The translations under genes and the position numbers were made by a program. Positions 6,715 to 61,652 of a stretch of 64,000 bases of DNA are shown here, piece after piece. Numbering within the stretch: position 1 is the stretch's first letter; each line of letters begins with the position of its first letter. The notes beneath the pieces were generated by a model. The model saw only the letters and a list, made by a program, of their open reading frames with translations, did no database searches and was not told the DNA's origin. This stretch comes from Azospirillum brasilense (GTDB lineage: Bacteria > Pseudomonadota > Alphaproteobacteria > Rickettsiales > UBA3002): positions 1,500 to 65,499 of the forward strand of contig QFOX01000003.1 of the NCBI GenBank assembly GCA_003241645.1, in the 5' to 3' direction.

Positions 6715-7983
6715 GTGGCAAAATACACGCATCGCCATCGCCTGCATGCCGACGATCCGAACCTGCGTCCCGCGGGCAGCGAGCGCGCGCGCGTCATCCG
6801 TGCCGCGTTCGATCTGGCGACGCTGGCGCATGCCGGGCAAAGCCGCGACAAGATCAACCCCACGATCGATTACATCAGCCACCCGATCATGGTGTACGAC
6901 ATCCTGCATGAGCTGGGCGAAGATGACCCCGCGCTGCTGGCCGCCGGCTTCCTGCACGACGTGCTGGAGCAGCCCGCCTACCGTGGCGACCCGGAGCGGT
7001 TGCTGCGCGAGCTGGAGGTGGCGCTGGAAAAAGAGGGCGTCGACGCATCGCGCGCGAAGCCGCTGGCGCAGCAGATCTACACGCTGGTCTACGAAGTCAC
7101 CAACCCGGCGGTGCTGCCCAAGAACAAGGAACTCTATCAGATCGACCACGGCACGCAGATGAGTTTTGCGGCCAAGAAACTGAAGATCGCCGATCAGGCC
7201 GCGTCGCTGGTGTGCAACCTGCTGTTGCCCAATGATGCGGAGGTGATTTCCTACGAGAAGGAGCGCGGCTTCAAAGAAAAAGCCGAAACGCTCTGCTATT
7301 CCATGATCGCCTCGGTGCAGCAGCACCCCGCCGAACGTGAAGCCATGGCACCGTATGACGCGTTCTTCTCGCGCGTGCTGCGGCAGGCGAACCAGCTCTT
7401 TCCGCACCCCAAATCCACCCCGCAATATATCTTCCGCGAACGCATGCGTGTGCGCCACCATTTCGATTTCTACGAACTGTTCACCGGGCCGGTCGCGTCG
7501 CTGCTCGCGCCGAAAAGCGCGATCGCCGAGAAACTCTATTTGTACGATCCTGACGCCTTGCCCGAGAAGCTGGAGAAGGACGCCCCCCTCGGCCTGATCC
7601 GGCTGGATTACGACGCACAGGGCCGCGTGGCGTCGTTCTACCTGCATGTGAGCAACGATTCCTCGCGCGAGAACGAGATCAACCAGCTGCAGCAAAAACT
7701 CACCGCTGAGATACGTGACCGGCTTCGCTGGGCTGGCCAATATACGGAAACTGCGAAACAACCGGTGCAGATGAGCATGCTGCAACCCGGCGAATTAGCC
7801 CCCATCGACCAGAATATCCGCCGCTACGACCTGCACCCCGCCATGCACCACGACGCGTTCGCCGCCGCGGCCAAAAGTGCGGGCGTGACCAGCATGCGCG
7901 ATGCGCAGCTCATCAAGAAAATTGGCGGGCAGTTGCGGCAGGACCACGACCGGCTGCACAAGGTGCCGGGGCGGAATCTTTAA
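6715..7983 (+). CDS. Mesh1/SpoT-like HD-domain (p)ppGpp-hydrolase homologue fused to an uncharacterised C-terminal domain
   Basis: GTG start at 6715. The N-terminal ~200 aa read AHAGQSRDK...YISHPIMVYDILHELGEDDPALLAAGFLHDVLE ... YEVTNPAVLPKNKELYQIDHGTQMSFAAKKLKIADQAASL, giving the H...HD...(K)IAD pattern of RelA/SpoT hydrolase (HD_4) domains. I do not recognise the remaining ~220 aa. Confidence 0.7.
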   Translation: MAKYTHRHRLHADDPNLRPAGSERARVIRAAFDLATLAHAGQSRDKINPTIDYISHPIMVYDILHELGEDDPALLAAGFLHDVLEQPAYRGDPERLLRELEVALEKEGVDASRAKPLAQQIYTLVYEVTNPAVLPKNKELYQIDHGTQMSFAAKKLKIADQAASLVCNLLLPNDAEVISYEKERGFKEKAETLCYSMIASVQQHPAEREAMAPYDAFFSRVLRQANQLFPHPKSTPQYIFRERMRVRHHFDFYELFTGPVASLLAPKSAIAEKLYLYDPDALPEKLEKDAPLGLIRLDYDAQGRVASFYLHVSNDSSRENEINQLQQKLTAEIRDRLRWAGQYTETAKQPVQMSMLQPGELAPIDQNIRRYDLHPAMHHDAFAAAAKSAGVTSMRDAQLIKKIGGQLRQDHDRLHKVPGRNL

Positions 7984-9095
7984 GCGGCGGCGGGCACGCC
8001 CTTGCTGGTCGAATATTCGAAATGGTGCGCCACGCCGGGATACACGATCTCGCGGATCGCATGCGCGGCCTGCGCCGCTTCGGCAAAGCCACACAGGATC
8101 AGCTTCAGCTTGTGCGGGTAGGTCGCAATGTCGCCAATGGCAAAAATGCCGGGCGCACTGGTGGCGCTGGTGCCCACCTGCGTGGCAATGTGGTTGCCAT
8201 GCAGGTTCAGCCCCCAGTTGGCGATGGGGCCCAGCTCCATGCTCAGCCCGAAGAAGGCGAGCAGATGGTCGGCCTCCACTTCGCGGATGGACCCATCCAT
8301 GGATTTCAGGCCAACGGCCGTTAGCTTTTTCTTAAGAAGGGGGGCTTGCCCCCCCTTCGCTTCGCTGACCCCTGCCGCAAGCGGCTCGCGCAGCTGCGGC
8401 GCTACGCTATCGCTAACTTCAACACCCGCCAGTGATTCCAGCTGGTAAGGCACCACGAATTCAATTTTACCGGCTTCGGCCAGCGCCTGCATTTTGCTGA
8501 CCGATTCGGGCATGGCGCGGAACTTGTCGCGGCGGTGCACCATGTAGATCTTCTTGGCCACTTCCGCGAGCGAATTGGCCCAGTCCACCGCGCTGTCGCC
8601 ACCCCCGGCAATGACCAGCGTCTGGTCGCGGAAATCTTCGCGTTTGGCCACCATGTAATGCACGCTGGTGCCCTCGAACTGCTCGATATTGGCCAGCGGC
8701 GGGCGGTTCGGGCCGAACGCCCCGCAGCCAGCCGCAATGATCACGGCCTTGCAGTCGATCACGGTGCCTTTGTTGGTGCCCACGCGCCAGCCGCCGTCGC
8801 GCTTTTCCACGAGGGTCACCTGCTGGTCGAGGTGGTAGACGGGGTCGAACGGCGCGGCTTGGGCTGCAAGGTTATCGATCAGCCCCTGGCCTTCAATGCT
8901 GAGAAAGCCCGGAATATCGTAGATGGGTTTTTCCGGATACAGCGCGCTGCACTGGCCGCCCACGGCGGGCAGCGTGTCGATCACATGGGCGCGGATCTTC
9001 AGCATGCCCAGTTCAAAGATGGCAAAAAGCCCCACCGGGCCCGCGCCAATGATGGCCACGTCGGTTTCGTGTGTTGTGCTGTGCGGTATGGTCAT
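7980..9095 (-). CDS. ferredoxin-NADP(+) reductase, thioredoxin-reductase-like type, carrying an in-frame repeat insertion
   Basis: Motifs are VAIIGAGPVGLF (FAD), VIAGGGDSAVDWA (NADPH) and FAIGDIATYP. The start is ATG 9095 (MTIPHSTT). At 371 aa it is about 30 aa longer than I recall for this family. The excess maps to the repeat at 8336-8407. Confidence 0.85.
   Translation of the reverse strand: MTIPHSTTHETDVAIIGAGPVGLFAIFELGMLKIRAHVIDTLPAVGGQCSALYPEKPIYDIPGFLSIEGQGLIDNLAAQAAPFDPVYHLDQQVTLVEKRDGGWRVGTNKGTVIDCKAVIIAAGCGAFGPNRPPLANIEQFEGTSVHYMVAKREDFRDQTLVIAGGGDSAVDWANSLAEVAKKIYMVHRRDKFRAMPESVSKMQALAEAGKIEFVVPYQLESLAGVEVSDSVAPQLREPLAAGVSEAKGGQAPLLKKKLTAVGLKSMDGSIREVEADHLLAFFGLSMELGPIANWGLNLHGNHIATQVGTSATSAPGIFAIGDIATYPHKLKLILCGFAEAAQAAHAIREIVYPGVAHHFEYSTSKGVPAAA
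8336..8407. repeat. GC-hairpin repeat (family R), copy inside the ferredoxin-NADP reductase ORF
   Basis: GAAGGGGGGCTTGCCCCCCCTTCGC..TGACCCCTGCCGC..GCGGCTCGCGC..CGGCGCTACGC is near-identical in blocks to 21319-21401 and related to 34816-34941. Confidence 0.8.
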
Positions 9096-9142
9096 TTGAC
9101 GAAACGCTTTAAAAGAGTGATAGTGATTAGGCAATGAAAACT

Positions 9143-9227
9143 GTCATTGCGAGCAAAGTGCGCAGCAATCCAGCCATGAAGCCCAGAGGCCTCTGGATTG
9201 CCACGTCGCTTCGCTTCCCGCAATGAC
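9143..9227. repeat. 85-bp palindromic element (family A), copy 1
   Basis: GTCATTGCGAGCAAAGTGCGCAGCAATCCAG ... CTGGATTGCCACGTCGCTTCGCTTCCCGCAATGAC has arms that are inverted repeats. Copies occur at 21773-21857 and 61443-61526. Confidence 0.9.
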
Positions 9228-9239
9228 GAAGGAGTATGC

Positions 9240-20574: not shown

Positions 20575-21772
20575 TCAATCCGCGCGGGGTTTGCGCGGGG
20601 CTTTCGTTGCAGGTTTTGCCGCACTGTTGCGCTGCATCACCAGCCCTTGCAGCAGGGCCAGCACTTTGTGGTCCACGCCGGAGAGCGGTAGCGCCGAAAT
20701 TTCCTCACGGCTGAACCAGCCGGGGCTGTTCATGCGCTTGTGCAGCCGCGCATGCACGACGCGCCCTTCCAGCCGGAAATGGCTGTAGATATGCGTCACG
20801 TGCCCGATCTCTTCCCAATGTTCGGCGTGCATTTCGCGCATGGGGTAGCGCAGGTCGGTCGTTACCGGCACTTGCGGAAAGCCATACAGCCCACCCAGCA
20901 GCGCGGCCTCCCGCGCTTCCAGATGCAGGTGGCCCGCCGCGTCTTCCAGCACCAGCAGGTACATGGCGCGCGTCGGGGTGGCCTTCTTCGGCTTCGGGGC
21001 GGGGTAACGCTCCGGCGATTTTTTGCCCTTGCAAATGCTATTGGCCGGGCAGCTCGGGCAGTCGGGTTTCTTGGGTGTACAGACCATGCTGCCCAGATCC
21101 ATCATCGCCTGATTATGGTCGAACGGTTCGGCCGTGTTCAGCAGCGCCTGCGCGCCGTCCCATAACTCCGTATCGCTGGGCTTCTCCCACGCGAACACCC
21201 GCGCCACGATGCGCTTCACGTTCGCCTCTAAGATGGCCACCGGCTGGCGATACGCGAATGCCGCGATGGCATGGGCCGTGTTTTTGCCGATGCCGGGGAG
21301 GGATTGGAGCTGTTCAAGCGAAGGGGGGCTTGCCCCCCCTTCGCGCGTTTCACGCGCTGACCCCTGCCGCTTCGCGGCTCGCGCCACTTCGGCGCTACGC
21401 ACCGGCTGCATCAACCCCAGTGCCACGGCCTTCTTCGCGCCCTCATGCAGGAACCCGGCACGGCGATAATAGCCAAGGCCCTCCCACGCTTTCATGACCT
21501 GCTCGCGCGGTGCTTCGGCCAGCGCCTGCACGGTCGGGAATTTCTCTAGGAACGGGGGGTAGAACCGCGCCAGCACGGTGGCCACCTGCGTTTGCTGCAG
21601 CATCACCTCCGACAGCCAGATGCGGTAGGGATCATCCGTCTGCCGCCACGGCAAATGGTGCCGCCCCTGTGCCGTGTACCACGCTGCCATGGCCGCATGA
21701 AACCTGTGTAAATCACGCGGTTTTATTTGCGGCACCGTGGGGGTGGTGCTAGGAGTTTGTCTGATTTTACGC

Positions 21773-21777
<5 letters not shown>
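20575..21777 (-). CDS. mutY: A/G-specific adenine DNA glycosylase MutY, carrying an in-frame repeat insertion
   Basis: Motifs are WLSEVMLQQTQV, the HhH LPGIGKNTAHAI, the 4Fe-4S cluster CTPKKPDCPSCPANSIC and a Nudix-like C-terminal domain. Candidate starts at 21777 and 21810 both lie inside the family A repeat. Confidence 0.85.
21319..21401. repeat. GC-hairpin repeat (family R), copy inside the mutY ORF
   Basis: CGAAGGGGGGCTTGCCCCCCCTTCGCGCGTTTCACGCGCTGACCCCTGCCGCTTCGCGGCTCGCGCCACTTCGGCGCTACGC shares blocks with 8336-8407 and 34816-34941. Confidence 0.8.
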
Positions 21778-23721
<1,944 letters not shown>

Positions 23722-33030: not shown

Positions 33031-34803
33031 ATGCCCACCTATTCCGCACCGTTGAAAGACTACCAGTTCCTCATCGACCATTTCCTCGAACTGGATAAGC
33101 ATGCCGCCGTGAAGGGCTTCGCCGAAGCGCGCGACATGGCGACCCCGCTGCTGGAAGCCAGCGCGCAACTGTGCGAAGAGGTGCTGTTCCCGCTCAACCG
33201 CGTGGGCGACGTGCAGGGCCTGAAACTGAAAGACGGCGTGGTCACCACGCCCGACGGCTTCAAGGAAGCCTACCAGCAATACGCCGAAGGCGGCTGGAGC
33301 ACGCTGACCTGGCCGACCGAATATGGCGGGCAGGACCTGCCGGAATTCCTGAACATGCCCATGCTGGAAATGGTCTGCTCGGCCAACCTTTCGTTCGGAC
33401 TCACCCCGGGCCTGACCCATGGCGCGATCCACGCGCTGGTGGTCTATGGCACCGACGAGCAGAAGCAGAAATACCTGCCCAACATGATCTCCGGCAAATG
33501 GTCCGGCGTGATGTGCCTGACCGAACCCACGGCAGGCACCGACCTTGGCCTGCTGAAAACCCGGGCCACCCCGCAGGCGGATGGCACCTACCGCATCGAG
33601 GGTAACAAGATATTCATCTCCGCCGGCGAGCAGGACCAGACCGAGAACATCATGCATCTCGTGCTGGCCCGCCTGCCGGATGCGCCGAAGGGCAGCAAAG
33701 GCATTTCGCTGTTCCTCGTGCCGAAGGTGCTGGTGAATGATGATGGCTCGCTGGGTGCGCGCAATGCGTTCAGCTGCTCGGCCATCGAGCATAAAATGGG
33801 CATCCATGCGAGCCCGACCTGTGTGATGAACTATGACGGCGCCACCGGCTACCTCGTGGGCAAGCCGAACGAAGGCCTGAAAGCCATGTTCGTGATGATG
33901 AACACCGCGCGCCTGTATGTGGGCGTGCAGGGCCTTGGCGTGGGCGAGGCGGCCTACCAGAACGCGCTCGCCTACAGTAAGGAGCGCTTGCAGGGCCGCG
34001 CGCTTAGCGGGCCGAAATTCCCCGAGAAAGCGGCGGACCCCATCACCGTGCACCCGGACGTGCGGCGCATGCTGCACACCATGAAATGCTTCACCGAAGG
34101 CAGCCGCGCACTGGTCATGGAGACCGCGTTGCAGATCGACATTGCGCACCGCCACGAGGACCCCGCCATGCGCGAAGCGGCGGATGATTTTGTGCAGCTG
34201 GTCACCCCCATCCTCAAATCCACCCTCACCGATGGCGGGTTCGAGACCGCCAGCACCGCCATGCAGTGCTTCGGCGGCTATGGCTACATCGAGGAATACG
34301 GGGCCGCGCAATACCTGCGCGATGCGCGCATCCCCATGATCTATGAGGGCACCAACGGCGTGCAGGCGATGGATCTGGTGGGCCGCAAGCTGGGCTATGA
34401 TACGGGGCGTTACCTGAAGCGTTTCTTCCACCCGGTGGATGCGTTCATTGCCGAAAACCGTGACGATCCGGCCATGGCCGAATTCACCAAGCCGCTGAAG
34501 GTCCACACCAAATACCTGCAGCAAGCCACCATGTGGGTGGGTGCGATGGGGTTGGCCAACCCCAACCATGCGGGGGCCGGCGCGGTCGAATACCAGAAGA
34601 TGTTCAGCCTCGTGCTGTTCGCGTGGCTATTCGCGCGGCAAGCCAAACTGGCGCTGGCGCTTCGCGATCAAGATCCTGAATTCTATGATCAAAAGCTCGC
34701 GACCTGCCGGTTCTTCTTCGCCAAACTGTTGCCGCAGACCACGGGGCTGCTGGCCAGCATCACCGCCGGGGCCGACCCGGTGATGGCGGATGCCGGGTTT
34801 TAA
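33031..34803 (+). CDS. acyl-CoA dehydrogenase (long, ~590-aa type)
   Basis: Motifs are GGWSTLTWPTEYGGQ, CLTEPTAGTDLG, GNKIFISAGE and GGYGYIEEYGAAQYLRDARI. AAGGAG RBS lies at 33017-33022. Confidence 0.88.
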   Translation: MPTYSAPLKDYQFLIDHFLELDKHAAVKGFAEARDMATPLLEASAQLCEEVLFPLNRVGDVQGLKLKDGVVTTPDGFKEAYQQYAEGGWSTLTWPTEYGGQDLPEFLNMPMLEMVCSANLSFGLTPGLTHGAIHALVVYGTDEQKQKYLPNMISGKWSGVMCLTEPTAGTDLGLLKTRATPQADGTYRIEGNKIFISAGEQDQTENIMHLVLARLPDAPKGSKGISLFLVPKVLVNDDGSLGARNAFSCSAIEHKMGIHASPTCVMNYDGATGYLVGKPNEGLKAMFVMMNTARLYVGVQGLGVGEAAYQNALAYSKERLQGRALSGPKFPEKAADPITVHPDVRRMLHTMKCFTEGSRALVMETALQIDIAHRHEDPAMREAADDFVQLVTPILKSTLTDGGFETASTAMQCFGGYGYIEEYGAAQYLRDARIPMIYEGTNGVQAMDLVGRKLGYDTGRYLKRFFHPVDAFIAENRDDPAMAEFTKPLKVHTKYLQQATMWVGAMGLANPNHAGAGAVEYQKMFSLVLFAWLFARQAKLALALRDQDPEFYDQKLATCRFFFAKLLPQTTGLLASITAGADPVMADAGF

Positions 34804-34815
34804 AATACTGTAATA

Positions 34816-34941
34816 GAAGGGATATGCTATCCCTTCGTCGCCTGCAGCTCCTTACCCTTTTGGCTCCCGATGGTCGCCTCTTTTCGCTTTGCTCCAAGTC
34901 GTTCGCTGACGCTCACGGCTCGCGCCACTTCGGCGCTACGC
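34816..34941. repeat. GC-hairpin repeat (family R), long intergenic variant
   Basis: The 5' hairpin is GAAGGGATATGCTATCCCTTCG. The 3' block TTCGCTGACGCTCACGGCTCGCGCCACTTCGGCGCTACGC matches the mutY copy almost exactly. Confidence 0.7.
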
Positions 34942-35201
34942 ATGGCATGCGTCGGCGTTTTTATTTCAGAGGAGCGCAGTAGCGCGACCCAGCCATGAGC
35001 CAGCGAAGCTGCGCGTAGGCATCGCGCAGTACGCGCGATCTGCCGGAGCAACGGTTAACTGTCATCATATCTTAACAAACACACATCCCTTGTTTTGCTA
35101 TATTTGCAGTGAAGGAGTCTATGCGCTAGGCGGAAACTCCATAACTTAACGCAATATTTACCGCGTTCCCACAGAATGGAACCAAGGTAGGAGCAGGCAA
35201 G

Positions 35202-37151
35202 ATGAGTGGTCGTGACGGTCTTTTAGGATTTGATATTCGTGGCGCGGGCCGTGAAGTGCGCGATTTGCGCCGCACCATGGACGAGGTGGGTCGCACCGTT
35301 GGCACCGGCGAGGCGCTGATTGGTGGCCACATCAACGGCGCCGAGGAAGCGCGCTACCGCACCCGCAATTACCGCACGCAGGGTCAGGCGAATGACGCCG
35401 AAGGCCGTTACATCATCAGCGAACATCGCCTCGAAGCCATTCGTGACGGTGATTTTGGCACCCCGGTGCGCCGCACCGCCGCACCGCGCCAAGCGAGCTA
35501 TGGCCAGGCACAGCCCGGCGGCTACAGCCAGCTGCCCCCCGAAGAATACCAGCGCGGTAGCGCACCGGAAGCACCCGTGGCGGCCCGTGCCGCCGCCCCG
35601 GCTGCAGCCCAGCGCGGCCCCGTTCGCCCGCTGGTGGCGAACGAGCGCCTGATCGAATCCGTCATGGGTGAGCTGGGCGATGCTGCCCGCGCCCAGACCC
35701 CGGCCGAGCGCGACGCCGCGCTTGATCGCTTCATTGCGGTGACCAACCGCATCGGTAAGGACACGCCGATCCAGTCCATCGGTGGCGAACTGAAAGTGAA
35801 TGGCGCCAACGGTGCGCAGATCGATATTCCGCTGCCGCCGCGCGGCCGCACCTTCACCATCACCGATATGGTGACGCCGTACCTGCGCCAGAACCGCGAG
35901 CTGGGCGATGCACTCGCCGCCCGTATCGCCGCGTCGAACGGCCAAACGGTGGAAGCACCCGCCAACCAACCGCAAGCACCGGCCACTGGCGCACCGACCA
36001 CGGCTGCGCCCGCCACTGGCGCTCCGGCTACGGCTGCTCCCAGCACTGGCGCACCCAGCACCGGCGCTCCCAGCACCGGCGCACCCAGCACCGGCGCTCC
36101 TGCACCGGCTACGGGCGCAACAGGCGCGCTGACCGCCGCTACCGGCGGTTCGGCACGCACCTACAGCCTGCGCACCAACACCGACGACATGCCGAAGATC
36201 GCCGCCAATCAGGTGGCTGACCTGCAGGGCCGTCTGGTGGATGCTGGCTTTGACCTTACCACCCGCCGCCAGGCCGATGGTAAGGACGGCAAATACGGCC
36301 CGAAAACCGAAGCCGCGGTGAACGCTATTGCCCGCGAAGCCGGGGTGAACCCAAAAGACATCGACTTCACTAACGCGCAAGACCCCGACACGGTGAAATT
36401 CATGCAAACGCTGGATGCGCGCATTGCCTCGCGCGGCCGTGCGGCGGCTCCGGCCCCCGTGGTGCCGCAAGGCCCGACCCCGGAAGAGCTGGCAGCTCAG
36501 GCGGAACGTGACCGCCTTGCCGCCGAAGAAGCCCGCATTCCCGAAGCGATCCGTGGCACGCACTACGACCCGCGCGTGAGCGCCACCATGAGCCAGGCCG
36601 AGCGCGATGCGCTTGCCCGCAAAGGCCTGCATGCGCTGGACGAGATCGCCTCCGAGAACGGGGCACGTGATCCCGAAACGCTGGCCCGCAAGATCCGCGA
36701 AGTACAGAAAGACGCTGGCATGCTGCAAAGCGGTGAAGCCAGCCCGCAAACGCTGGCCGCCCTTGGGGTGGCCGTGGCCGAACGCAGTGGCCTCGCTGGC
36801 CGCGCTGGCAACGTGTACGAGGGTGCGCAGTCGCAGGCGGAAATGAACGCGGCCGCTGCCGTGGGCTTCCATGCGCTGGACGAGACCGCGGGCATCACCC
36901 GCAACCCGGAAGTGCTGGCCCGCAAGGTGCGTGAGTTCGAACGCGAGAACAACCTGACCGTGGATGGTCGCGTAGACCCCGCCATGCTGCAGGCACTGGA
37001 GCAGGCCGTGGCCGCGCGCGGTGGCCTCACGCAGGTGCGTGGCGGCACCGAGGTGAGCGCCAACGGCGGTGAGCCGCCGGCATCGCCGACCGTACAGACC
37101 AACCCGCAGCTTCAGCAGACCCGTCTGGCTGAAGGTGGGCAGCGCGCGTAA
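35202..37151 (+). CDS. hypothetical 649-aa protein with peptidoglycan-binding-like repeats and a PSTGA low-complexity linker
   Basis: GGAG lies upstream of ATG 35202. VADLQGRLVDAGFDL...DGKYGPKTEAAVNAIAREAGV resembles PG_binding_1. Two further ~80-aa repeats end in LARKIREVQKDAGMLQSGEASPQTLAALG and LARKVREFERENNLTVDGRVDPAMLQALE. I do not recognise the N-terminal 250 aa, and there is no obvious signal peptide. Confidence 0.6.
   Translation: MSGRDGLLGFDIRGAGREVRDLRRTMDEVGRTVGTGEALIGGHINGAEEARYRTRNYRTQGQANDAEGRYIISEHRLEAIRDGDFGTPVRRTAAPRQASYGQAQPGGYSQLPPEEYQRGSAPEAPVAARAAAPAAAQRGPVRPLVANERLIESVMGELGDAARAQTPAERDAALDRFIAVTNRIGKDTPIQSIGGELKVNGANGAQIDIPLPPRGRTFTITDMVTPYLRQNRELGDALAARIAASNGQTVEAPANQPQAPATGAPTTAAPATGAPATAAPSTGAPSTGAPSTGAPSTGAPAPATGATGALTAATGGSARTYSLRTNTDDMPKIAANQVADLQGRLVDAGFDLTTRRQADGKDGKYGPKTEAAVNAIAREAGVNPKDIDFTNAQDPDTVKFMQTLDARIASRGRAAAPAPVVPQGPTPEELAAQAERDRLAAEEARIPEAIRGTHYDPRVSATMSQAERDALARKGLHALDEIASENGARDPETLARKIREVQKDAGMLQSGEASPQTLAALGVAVAERSGLAGRAGNVYEGAQSQAEMNAAAAVGFHALDETAGITRNPEVLARKVREFERENNLTVDGRVDPAMLQALEQAVAARGGLTQVRGGTEVSANGGEPPASPTVQTNPQLQQTRLAEGGQRA
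35976..36120 (+). repeat. in-frame tandem repeat (15-bp units, PxTGA/PSTGA)
   Basis: Four near-perfect units CCCAGCACYGGCGCW span 36039-36098, flanked by degenerate units. The region encodes APATGAPTTAAPATGAPATAAPSTGAPSTGAPSTGAPSTGAPAPATGATG. Confidence 0.9.
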
Positions 37152-61442: not shown

Positions 61443-61526
61443 GTCATTGCGAGCAAACTGCGAAGCAATCCAGTCCTGAGAGCCCGTATCCCTGGATTGC
61501 CGCGTCGCTTCGCTCCTCGCAATGAC
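61443..61526. repeat. 85-bp palindromic element (family A), copy 3
   Basis: GTCATTGCGAGCAAACTGCGAAGCAATCCAG...CTGGATTGCCGCGTCGCTTCGCTCCTCGCAATGAC starts 3 nt after the ispG stop. Confidence 0.9.
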
Positions 61527-61652
61527 GTATTATATGCTTGCCAGCCGCATTCCACCCGGCTAACAACCAAGCACCGCATGCAAGGGCGTGCGTGGAAGAA
61601 GCAGGCGAGCGACGCCGCTTCGCCAACCTAGGATAAGTGAATTGAAACGTTA

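What the first reader, a model, noticed from the sequence alone, without database searches (positions are those of the whole stretch)
21319..21401. The same GC-hairpin repeat inserted in-frame in mutY, read in a different frame
Between the conserved helix (..LHEGAKKAVALG) and the HhH motif (SLEQLQSLPGIGKNTAHAI), MutY here has about 31 extra residues, LMQPVRSAEVARAAKRQGSARETREGGASPP. They are encoded by the family R repeat. The shared G6CTTGC7 hairpin is translated as REGGASPP here but as AKGGQAPL in the FNR gene. The same DNA element is therefore open in at least two frames on the same strand, and both host genes are on the minus strand. That argues for DNA- or RNA-level insertion followed by selection only for an open frame, not for a conserved peptide.
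Basis: partly seen in the sequence, partly recalled or inferred. Interest (0 to 1): 0.75.

Follow-up and report, generated by a model that had tools for sequence, protein, structure and literature searches.

The report
Selfish hairpin repeat translated inside mutY
A short GC-rich hairpin repeat of the REP type sits inside the DNA-repair gene mutY (and a reductase gene) and is read through as an extra protein loop; this kind of event is already known from Rickettsia and other bacteria, but here it involves a new repeat family in uncultured aquatic alphaproteobacteria.

Summary
An 81-nt repeat (21320-21400, minus strand) lies in frame in an intact mutY gene that is under purifying selection. A 72-nt copy (8336-8407) lies in frame in a ferredoxin-NADP reductase gene and is read in another frame. 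A third, 127-nt copy is intergenic. Orthologues with empty sites exist for both genes, so the segment is a derived DNA insertion and not a native loop.

The element is a chain of four small hairpins behind an invariant GCGTAG head. It belongs to a family found in several 'Rickettsiales'/alphaproteobacterial MAGs. Most copies there are intergenic, and about 10% lie in frame in housekeeping genes (carB, kdsB, rsmE, mnmC, thiG, an IMPase gene), in either orientation.

In MutY orthologues the same loop carries this element forward, reversed, or other repeat families; 35 of 115 orthologues are empty. Alleles are exchanged by recombination.

One result was unexpected. The element is far better conserved (97.5%) than synonymous sites of its host gene (52%), and its stem changes are compensatory. 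Something more than an open frame therefore preserves it.

The closest known cases are intragenic GTAG/CGTC-tagged REPs and Rickettsia palindromic elements. I class it as a new member of a known kind, of moderate interest.

The parts
21320..21400 (-). 81-nt copy of repeat family R inside mutY. It encodes ORF residues R138-P163 (plus parts of V137 and S164).
   Evidence: Head profile E = 1.5e-11.
21381..21400 (-). Invariant head GCGTAG followed by hairpin H1 (GCGCC-GAAGT-GGCGC)
   Evidence: GCGTAG is invariant in 55 copies, but the search pattern required it. The element starts sharply there, with a pyrimidine at -1 in 53/55. Alignment and consensus fold.
21366..21378 (-). Hairpin H2 (GCCGC-GAA-GCGGC)
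   Evidence: Consensus fold. Compensatory C-G to U-A in L001 and L077.
21343..21357 (-). Hairpin H3 (GCGCG-TGAAA-CGCGC). This is a variable module, replaced in other copies by GCCTGCG..CGCAGGC or by a short GCGAAGC.
21320..21342 (-). Hairpin H4 (GAAGGGGGGG-CAAG-CCCCCCTTC), the 'GC hairpin' of the finding, read as EGGASPP
20575..21777 (-). mutY coding sequence (ATG at 21777; the mechanical ORF extends to a GTG at 21810)
8336..8407 (-). 72-nt copy of repeat R inside the ferredoxin-NADP reductase gene. It lacks the long H3 and is read in the other open frame (VAPQLREPLAAGVSEAKGGQAPL).
7980..9095 (-). Thioredoxin-reductase-like ferredoxin-NADP reductase gene, the second host gene
34815..34941 (-). 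Third, intergenic copy of R. It is a long variant with the same head and a different tail ending GAAGGGATAGCATATCCCTTC. It lies just 3' of the acyl-CoA dehydrogenase gene (33031..34803 +).

Best explanation
The segment is a copy of a REP-like, GTAG-tagged repeat family, called R here. R has an invariant head, GCGTAGCGCCGNAGCTGCGCGAGCCGC, followed by two to three variable GC hairpins, for a total of about 60-130 nt.

The family is dispersed through the genomes of a lineage of uncultured aquatic alphaproteobacteria, mostly between genes.

**Shown.**
- Copies entered mutY and the reductase gene as DNA.
- Both landed in a surface loop or turn and added a net multiple of three bases (87 nt in each).
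- The element is so GC-rich that four of its six frames have no stop codon.
- The host genes stayed intact and under purifying selection.
- The encoded peptide differs with frame and orientation.

**Inferred.**
- The element is transcribed and translated with the gene as a tolerated 29-residue loop.
- The peptide itself is not what is maintained.
- The family spreads as other GTAG REPs are thought to, through a RAYT-type single-strand tyrosine transposase or through recombination between copies.
- The MutY loop collects inserts because it is one of the few places in the protein that tolerates them.
- Cassette alleles are then passed between lineages by homologous recombination.
For: **Repeat identity and frames.**

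**Derived insertion.** Empty sites occur in 35/115 MutY orthologues. The closest reductase orthologue (L083, 90.5% nt identity) is also empty. E. coli MutY and R. palustris FNR lack the segment.

**Same site, opposite orientation.** L003, L004 and L007 carry the element reversed. Net insert sizes are 63, 75, 75, 78, 87 and 87 nt.

**Family distribution.** A scan of 185,579 species genomes found 74 loci. About 50 fall in only five alphaproteobacterial MAGs; the remaining loci look like chance single hits.

**Position of copies.** Most copies are intergenic, and few lie between divergent genes: 3 of the 29 copies that had a long ORF on both sides.

**In-frame copies in other genes.** Copies in either orientation occur in RsmE-like, CarB, IMPase, KdsB, ThiG and MnmC genes, with host identities confirmed by Pfam.

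**Host gene functional.** mutY passes the TIGR01084 cut-off, has dN/dS 0.10-0.20, and keeps its catalytic motifs and the 4-Cys cluster.

**Insert is a loop.** In the AlphaFold model the insert has low confidence (pLDDT 41-64) between two confident helices.

**Not an artefact.** The same allele appears in independent assemblies.

**Recombination.** L001 and L007 are about 99% identical except for a roughly 240-nt tract around the cassette, where L007 is 93-97% identical to L003.

**Literature.** Intragenic GTAG/CGTC REPs and RPEs behave this way (PMC3733652, PMC10969869, PMC2229807).
Against: - No transposase was found. Only about 0.5 Mb was screened, and the query sequences were recalled from memory.
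- There are no terminal inverted repeats and no clear target-site duplication, so the insertion mechanism is unknown.
- Orthologous copies are much better conserved than a neutral passenger should be. Window and L001 share 79/81 bases where synonymous sites of the host gene differ at 48% and the immediate flanks are only 73-77% identical. The reductase copies share 48/50 against 79.5% for the gene.
- Translation of the insert has not been shown experimentally.
Confidence: 0.8

Rival explanations
1. The element is not only a tolerated passenger. Its nucleic-acid structure is itself under selection where it sits. It could act as an RNA or DNA cis-element, for example an mRNA-stabilising or pausing hairpin set, or a protein-binding site as proposed for REPs. 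Alternatively, a sequence-specific process such as gene conversion or RAYT-mediated replacement could keep it uniform. This reading adds to the main explanation and does not exclude it.
For: - The element is 97.5% identical between window and L001, while host synonymous sites differ at 48% (P about 2e-20).
- Both changes are compensatory within H2.
- The H3 variants GCGCG/CGCGC and GCCTGCG/CGCAGGC differ in sequence but both fold.
- The reductase copies share 48/50 bases across genes that are 79.5% identical.

Against: - No Rfam family matches.
- H1 shows no covariation.
- Copies do decay: there is an 18-nt head deletion in L085 and GTATAG in L006.
- The same MutY site tolerates either orientation and unrelated repeats, so no single strand-specific function is needed there.
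- Copies found by exact-pattern search are biased towards intact heads.
Confidence: 0.3
2. The inserted peptide is an adaptive addition to MutY. A basic helix (AEVARAAKRQ) placed before the helix-hairpin-helix motif would modify DNA binding.
For: The insert lies immediately upstream of the HhH motif. The model predicts a short helix at residues 140-149.
Against: - Orthologues carry the reverse-orientation peptide (EGGLTPPSPAAQATPAA..), other frames, other repeat families, or nothing at the same site.
- The same DNA gives unrelated peptides in other enzymes.
- Synonymous positions are as conserved as the others, which points to the DNA and not the peptide.
Confidence: 0.05
3. The G7 and C6 runs inside a mutator gene act as a slippage-prone switch that reversibly inactivates mutY (a phase-variable mutator).
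For: Homopolymer runs G7 and C6 lie in the coding sequence of a gene whose loss raises the mutation rate. Di Nocera et al. speculated that REPs in repair genes may favour mutator states (PMC3733652).
Against: - The runs are a generic feature of the repeat family, wherever a copy lies.
- Run lengths are identical in window and L001 despite dS of 0.77.
- No frameshifted allele was seen among the 120 listed orthologues, though protein searches favour intact genes.
- From general knowledge, runs of 7 slip only weakly.
Confidence: 0.04
4. The segment is an assembly artefact, or the gene is a decaying pseudogene.
For: Repeats can cause misassembly. The source is a metagenome contig.
Against: - The same insert occurs in frame in independent assemblies from different samples (L001, L002).
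- The ORF is intact, dN/dS is 0.10-0.20, the catalytic motifs are kept, and the mutY equivalog cut-off is passed.
Confidence: 0.02

Closest known systems
Intragenic GTAG-/CGTC-tagged REPs (Di Nocera, De Gregorio & Rocco 2013, PMC3733652)
   Same: Both are short GC-rich stem-loop repeats with a GTAG tag at one end, present in many copies and mostly intergenic near the 3' ends of ORFs. A minority of copies lie entirely inside known genes, where they encode 8-30 extra residues. Many of the hosts are replication and repair genes. Different REPs have been reported at about the same site of recB in two Xanthomonas species.
   Different: - R is a fixed chain of hairpins behind one tagged head, not a single stem-loop or an inverted dimer.
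- No RAYT gene has been linked to it.
- mutY is not among the listed host genes.
- The GTAG families in that paper are mainly gammaproteobacterial.
- Use of two frames and both orientations at one orthologous site, and conservation above synonymous sites, were not found in the passages of that paper that I read.
Rickettsia palindromic elements, RPE (Ogata et al. 2000, as reviewed in PMC10969869 and PMC2229807)
   Same: Both are selfish repeats inserted in frame in unrelated housekeeping genes of an alphaproteobacterium. The insertions are compatible with protein fold and function. One RPE-bearing enzyme (Gmk) has been shown to be translated and active.
   Different: - RPEs are 105-146 bp and fold as one long stem-loop with inverted termini. 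R is 60-130 nt and forms independent small hairpins.
- RPEs are described as encoding a conserved peptide. R does not.
- R is very GC-rich and shows no sign of sequence relationship to RPEs.
- The hosts appear to be free-living aquatic bacteria with 49-65% GC.
ERIC, Correia (107-bp form) and YPAL MITEs fused in frame to ORFs (Delihas 2007/2008, PMC2229807)
   Same: Both are small non-autonomous repeats with open frames that occasionally form translational fusions.
   Different: Those elements have terminal inverted repeats and TA target duplications. R shows neither.

Membership tests
GTAG-tagged REP superfamily | GTAG tetranucleotide at one end of the repeat | tested here: met
   GCGTAG is present in all 55 copies, but the search pattern required it, so this is not independent evidence. 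Similarity stops sharply just upstream of it, where position -1 is T or C in 53/55. Whether the tag is unpaired is unclear, because RNAalifold pairs part of it.
GTAG-tagged REP superfamily | A 20-40 bp GC-rich stem-loop with a 5-13 bp stem directly after the tag | tested here: inconclusive
   H1 has only a 4-5 bp stem and no covariation. It is followed by three further hairpins, so the unit is 60-130 nt.
GTAG-tagged REP superfamily | Many copies per genome, mostly intergenic, between convergent or unidirectional ORFs | tested here: met
   One MAG has about 27 copies, another 12 and another 11. About 90% lie outside verified genes. Only 3 of the 29 copies that had a long ORF on both sides lie between divergent ORFs, although the ORF calls are crude.
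GTAG-tagged REP superfamily | Associated RAYT (Y1 transposase) gene flanked by the repeats | tested here: inconclusive
   phmmer found no hit in ORFs from about 0.5 Mb (window plus loci). The IS200 and RayT queries were recalled from memory, and the genomes were sampled only around repeats.
Rickettsia palindromic elements (RPE) | In-frame insertion in conserved housekeeping genes that remain intact | tested here: met
   mutY, FNR, carB, kdsB, rsmE-like, IMPase, mnmC and thiG
Rickettsia palindromic elements (RPE) | A 105-146 bp element folding into one long stem-loop through its inverted termini | tested here: not met
   The copies are 72-81 nt. Only local hairpins form and the ends do not pair.
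Rickettsia palindromic elements (RPE) | Each family encodes a conserved peptide | tested here: not met
   There are two forward frames, a mid-element frame change in L006, and reverse-orientation peptides.
Rickettsia palindromic elements (RPE) | Sequence similarity to RPE-1 to RPE-10 | not tested
   No RPE sequences were at hand.
MITE | Terminal inverted repeats of 15-30 bp | tested here: not met
   Only internal hairpin arms were found. The reductase copy is flanked by a 6-nt inverted pair, which could be chance.
MITE | Target-site duplication | tested here: inconclusive
   In the filled-versus-empty comparison of the reductase gene, 24 unaligned flanking bases replace 9. No clean duplication is visible.
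MutY adenine glycosylase (host gene) | HhH-GPD domain with catalytic Glu and Asp, a 4-Cys cluster, and a C-terminal NUDIX-like domain | tested here: met
   SEVMLQQT, NQAMMDLG and CX7CX2CX5C are present. Pfam and TIGR01084 scores are above their cut-offs.

The most novel reading that the evidence does not exclude
REP-type hairpin elements inside genes may be actively maintained nucleic-acid modules and not passive passengers. Their sequence and stems are preserved across lineages that have diverged by dS of about 0.8. The loop of MutY that holds them behaves as a cassette whose alleles (forward, reverse, other repeat families, empty) are shuffled between lineages by recombination. If so, the elements would have a cis function in the mRNA or DNA, or a dedicated maintenance machinery. 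They might then influence expression or recombination of a mutation-avoidance gene.
Probability: 0.15. Interest if true: 0.75.

Novelty: new member of a known kind. Interest (0 to 1): 0.45.

Why it matters
The finding adds a well-documented case, outside Rickettsia and in free-living uncultured alphaproteobacteria, of repeats being absorbed into essential enzymes as extra loops.

The same element appears in two frames and both orientations at one orthologous site. This shows cleanly that such loops originate as DNA and not as peptides.

There are practical consequences. Extra loops like these inflate protein length variation, can mislead annotation and structure prediction, and mark permissive insertion sites in enzymes.

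The conservation of the element above synonymous sites is the one result that could bear on the long-standing question of whether REPs have a function.

Tried and rejected
- **Rfam.** Searches at gathering and at permissive thresholds found nothing for the element.
- **In-situ inversion.** I tested this as the cause of the forward/reverse difference between the near-identical L001 and L007 and rejected it. The two elements are only about 80% alike, and the divergent tract extends beyond the element and matches L003. Recombination explains it better.
- **Conserved extension or target motif upstream of the head.** Only a pyrimidine at -1 and C-richness at -2 to -4 were found.
- **Target-site duplication.** I looked at the reductase empty and filled sites and found none that was convincing.
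- **RAYT/IS200 screen.** There were no hits, but this is a weak test.
- **Metagenome pattern scan.** My pattern excluded copies with a 2-nt H2 loop, so it returned only 6 loci.
- **Intrinsic-terminator role.** I rejected this on reading the sequence, because no T-run follows H4 in either orientation.
- **DNA-uptake-sequence analogy.** I considered and set this aside. Uptake sequences are about 10-30 nt and arise by point mutation, not as 80-nt insertions.

Full report
**Observation.** The ORF 20575..21810 (-) is mutY.
- It matches HhH-GPD, HHH and the MutY-type NUDIX_4 domain.
- It scores 288.1 bits on the TIGR01084 mutY equivalog model, above the 286.5 cut-off.
- It keeps the catalytic Glu (SEVMLQQT), the catalytic Asp (NQAMMDLG) and the four cluster cysteines.
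- The likely start is the ATG at 21777.

E. coli MutY (1kg2) aligns to ORF residues 36-129 and 155-275, with chain residues 97 and 98 adjacent. Orthologues with an empty site have 20 residues between '..LH' and 'PGIG', where the window has 49. The net addition is therefore 29 residues, or 87 nt.

The repeat itself is 81 nt at 21320-21400 (-). A 72-nt copy lies at 8336-8407 (-) inside the ORF 7980..9134, and a 127-nt variant at 34815-34941 (-) is intergenic. A profile of the repeat head finds these three copies and nothing else in the window, with E = 1.5e-11, 5.5e-13 and 1.1e-7. The 16-mer of the terminal hairpin occurs twice against 0.13 expected.

That hairpin is read EGGASPP in mutY and KGGQAPL in the other gene. 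The other gene is a thioredoxin-reductase-like ferredoxin-NADP reductase. Its best solved relative is 5ygq (E = 8e-103), with about 30 unmatched residues at the insert.

**The segment is a derived insertion.** Among 115 MutY orthologues whose flanking motifs could be located, 35 have the short, empty form of the loop (EAAKRAHNGLPxDVEGLRAL). For the reductase, nearly all orthologues are 340-343 residues long. The closest one (L083, 90.5% nt identity) reads GGC GAT GGT ACC AAG where the window holds the repeat. A more distant orthologue (L085, 79.5% identity) has the same insert with an 18-nt deletion in its head.

**Anatomy.** On the sense strand of the host genes the element starts sharply at GCGTAG. 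There is no conserved sequence upstream apart from a pyrimidine at -1. It consists of:
- hairpin H1 (GCGCC-GAAGT-GGCGC);
- hairpin H2 (GCCGC-GAA-GCGGC);
- a linker, AGGGGTCA;
- a variable hairpin H3;
- hairpin H4 (GAAGGGGGGG-CAAG-CCCCCCTTC).

H2 and H4 show compensatory changes among copies. H3 is replaced by different sequences that still fold. H1 is invariant, so it gives no covariation evidence. The ends do not pair with each other, and there are no terminal inverted repeats. The mutY copy has no stop codon in four of its six frames. The closed forward frame is the one that reads the TAG of the tag.

**The family.** I scanned one genome per species (185,579 genomes) for GCGTAGCGCCG-N4-7-GCGCGAGCCG. 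This returned 74 loci, and about 50 fall in five MAGs:
- three named 'Rickettsiales bacterium' (Deming_bin.116 with about 27 copies, a Lake Mendota bin with about 12, and P.bin.123);
- one named 'Azospirillum sp.' (about 11 copies);
- Alphaproteobacteria UBA6189.

The remaining loci are single hits in unrelated high-GC genomes and look like chance. The head is constant, while the tails fall into several types.

Most copies are intergenic. Of the 29 copies that had a long ORF on both sides, only 3 lie between divergent genes; the ORF calls are crude. This is the pattern described for REPs (PMC3733652).

About one copy in ten lies in frame inside a real gene, with host identities confirmed by Pfam:
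- an RsmE-like methyltransferase (reverse orientation);
- CarB (reverse);
- an inositol-monophosphatase family protein (forward, in the mutY frame);
- KdsB (two tandem reverse copies);
- the linker of MnmC (reverse);
- the N-terminal extension of ThiG.

A second site in the reductase of another MAG holds a reverse copy (P0213).

**The MutY loop.** DNA of orthologues shows the R element at the same place in three states:
- forward, in L001, L002 and L006;
- reversed, in L003, L004 and L007;
- absent, in L005 and L008.

Net insert sizes are 63-87 nt, all multiples of three. In L006 the head is read in the 'reductase' frame and the tail in the 'mutY' frame.

Judged by their peptides, about 35 of the 115 orthologues carry R in one orientation or the other. 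Most of the rest carry inserts that look like other repeat families (GWWVV.., SRARPGISR..IPGQARDD, SPRRMTGS..GPRHKDGVT and others). Two of these resemble the CGTC-3 peptides listed by Di Nocera et al..

The states are interleaved on a neighbour-joining tree of the flanking protein sequence. At least part of this patchwork is due to recombination. L001 and L007 are about 99% identical over 2.2 kb, except for the cassette and the upstream intergenic region. In a tract of about 240 nt around the cassette, L007 is 93-97% identical to the otherwise more distant L003. Reverse-orientation alleles from distant backbones also share the same altered downstream helix (..ATQDILDFW..), which suggests that alleles travel. 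Whether the site is also a preferred target for insertion cannot be decided from these data.

**Host genes are functional.** Outside the cassette, mutY has dN/dS of 0.10-0.20 between insert-bearing lineages. The AlphaFold model built from the orthologue alignment gives the insert low confidence (pLDDT 41-64), with one short helix, between confident helices 115-130 and 165-169. In the reductase the insert sits at a turn, where the empty orthologues have only a 3-4-residue Gly-rich segment (G-DGT-K in P0122). I infer that it is a beta-hairpin turn. No second mutY is present in the window. The rest of the genome could not be checked.

**An unexpected feature.** Window and L001 differ at 48% of synonymous sites in mutY (dS 0.77). 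They differ at 23-27% of positions in the cassette flanks immediately next to the element. The 81-nt elements differ at only two positions, and together those two convert a C-G pair of H2 into U-A. The binomial probability of two or fewer differences at the synonymous rate is about 2e-20.

L003 and L007 share 80/82 bases, but there the whole tract was exchanged. The reductase copies of window and L085 share 48/50 bases, against 79.5% for the gene.

The mutY copies of window and L001 share private features, namely the H1 loop and the sequence of H3. They are therefore orthologous and not freshly converted from a generic copy. Something acts on the nucleotides of the element: structural or binding constraint, conversion among a subfamily of copies, or template-directed correction within hairpins. 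This is shown as a pattern; its cause is not established.

**Comparison with what is known.** In-frame repeats in housekeeping genes were first described for Rickettsia palindromic elements (reviewed in PMC10969869 and PMC2229807). Di Nocera et al. (PMC3733652) showed three relevant things:
- short palindromic repeats tagged by GTAG or CGTC occur inside genes in many species;
- they encode 8-30 residues, often in replication and repair genes;
- different REPs sit at about the same site of recB in two Xanthomonas species.

MutY is not among their host genes.

R fits this class by its GTAG tag, copy number and genomic distribution. It differs in being a fixed multi-hairpin unit, and no RAYT gene has yet been linked to it (a weak test). 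It is not an RPE by structure or by peptide conservation, and it is not a MITE by the usual criteria. I therefore class it as a new member of a known kind.

The points that go beyond the literature I read are:
- the use of two frames and both orientations at one orthologous site;
- the breadth of the MutY loop polymorphism;
- the conservation of the element above synonymous sites.

Noticed in passing
window 21772-21858: A dimer of a second repeat family lies between the divergent thiC and mutY genes. Its units are CGTCATTGCGAG..GCAATCCAG at 21823-21858 and, inverted, at 21772-21801. The 'CGTCAT' ends read ATGACG on the opposite strand, which supplies the first ATG of both ORFs (thiC 21853, mutY 21777). 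The family fits the CGTC-tagged REP superfamily (CGTC tag, AT-first stem, CCA tail; PMC3733652).
   Followed up: partly
window 9143-9229 and 61443-61528: There are further dimers of the same CGTC-tagged repeat. The first lies immediately upstream of the reductase start codon at 9095.
   Followed up: no
L001 2890-4197 and L007 10001-11296 (alignment A1 columns 287-326 and 420-460): MutY orthologues have two more variable spots. One is a roughly 40-residue insert (HLSEASARKRHAQ..DKQIAQRNGLM) shared by P0002, P0005, P0103 and P0111, just before the PFDYNQAMMD motif. The other lies in the C-terminal domain.
   Followed up: no
L001 about 2750-2980 versus L007 (alignment columns 250-480): The two strains are otherwise about 99% identical, but they also differ completely in the thiC-mutY intergenic region and the first codons of mutY. 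This is the place where the window has the CGTC repeat dimer.
   Followed up: no
window 34942-35060: Upstream of the third R copy there is a GC-hairpin stretch (..GCTGGCTCATGGCTGGGTCGCGCTACTGCGCTCC..GAAATAAAAAC). It resembles the sequence upstream of R copies in L013, L017 and L065, so a longer composite unit may exist in intergenic copies.
   Followed up: no
window 35954-36145: A tandem repeat with a 15-nt period lies inside a long ORF. It would be Pro/Ala/Thr-rich if translated (family D1).
   Followed up: no
L011 (CarB ORF) and L055 3928-4072: The CarB gene that holds a reverse R copy also holds an in-frame 'GGGSWVVSGEDKSRPTTHH' insert of another repeat family. KdsB in UBA6189 holds two tandem reverse R copies.
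   Followed up: partly
L078 7305-7373 and L091 about 1546-1625: In two genomes an R copy sits at the very start of thiG. The ThiG reading frame runs through it, and a GTG inside the element may serve as the start codon.
   Followed up: partly
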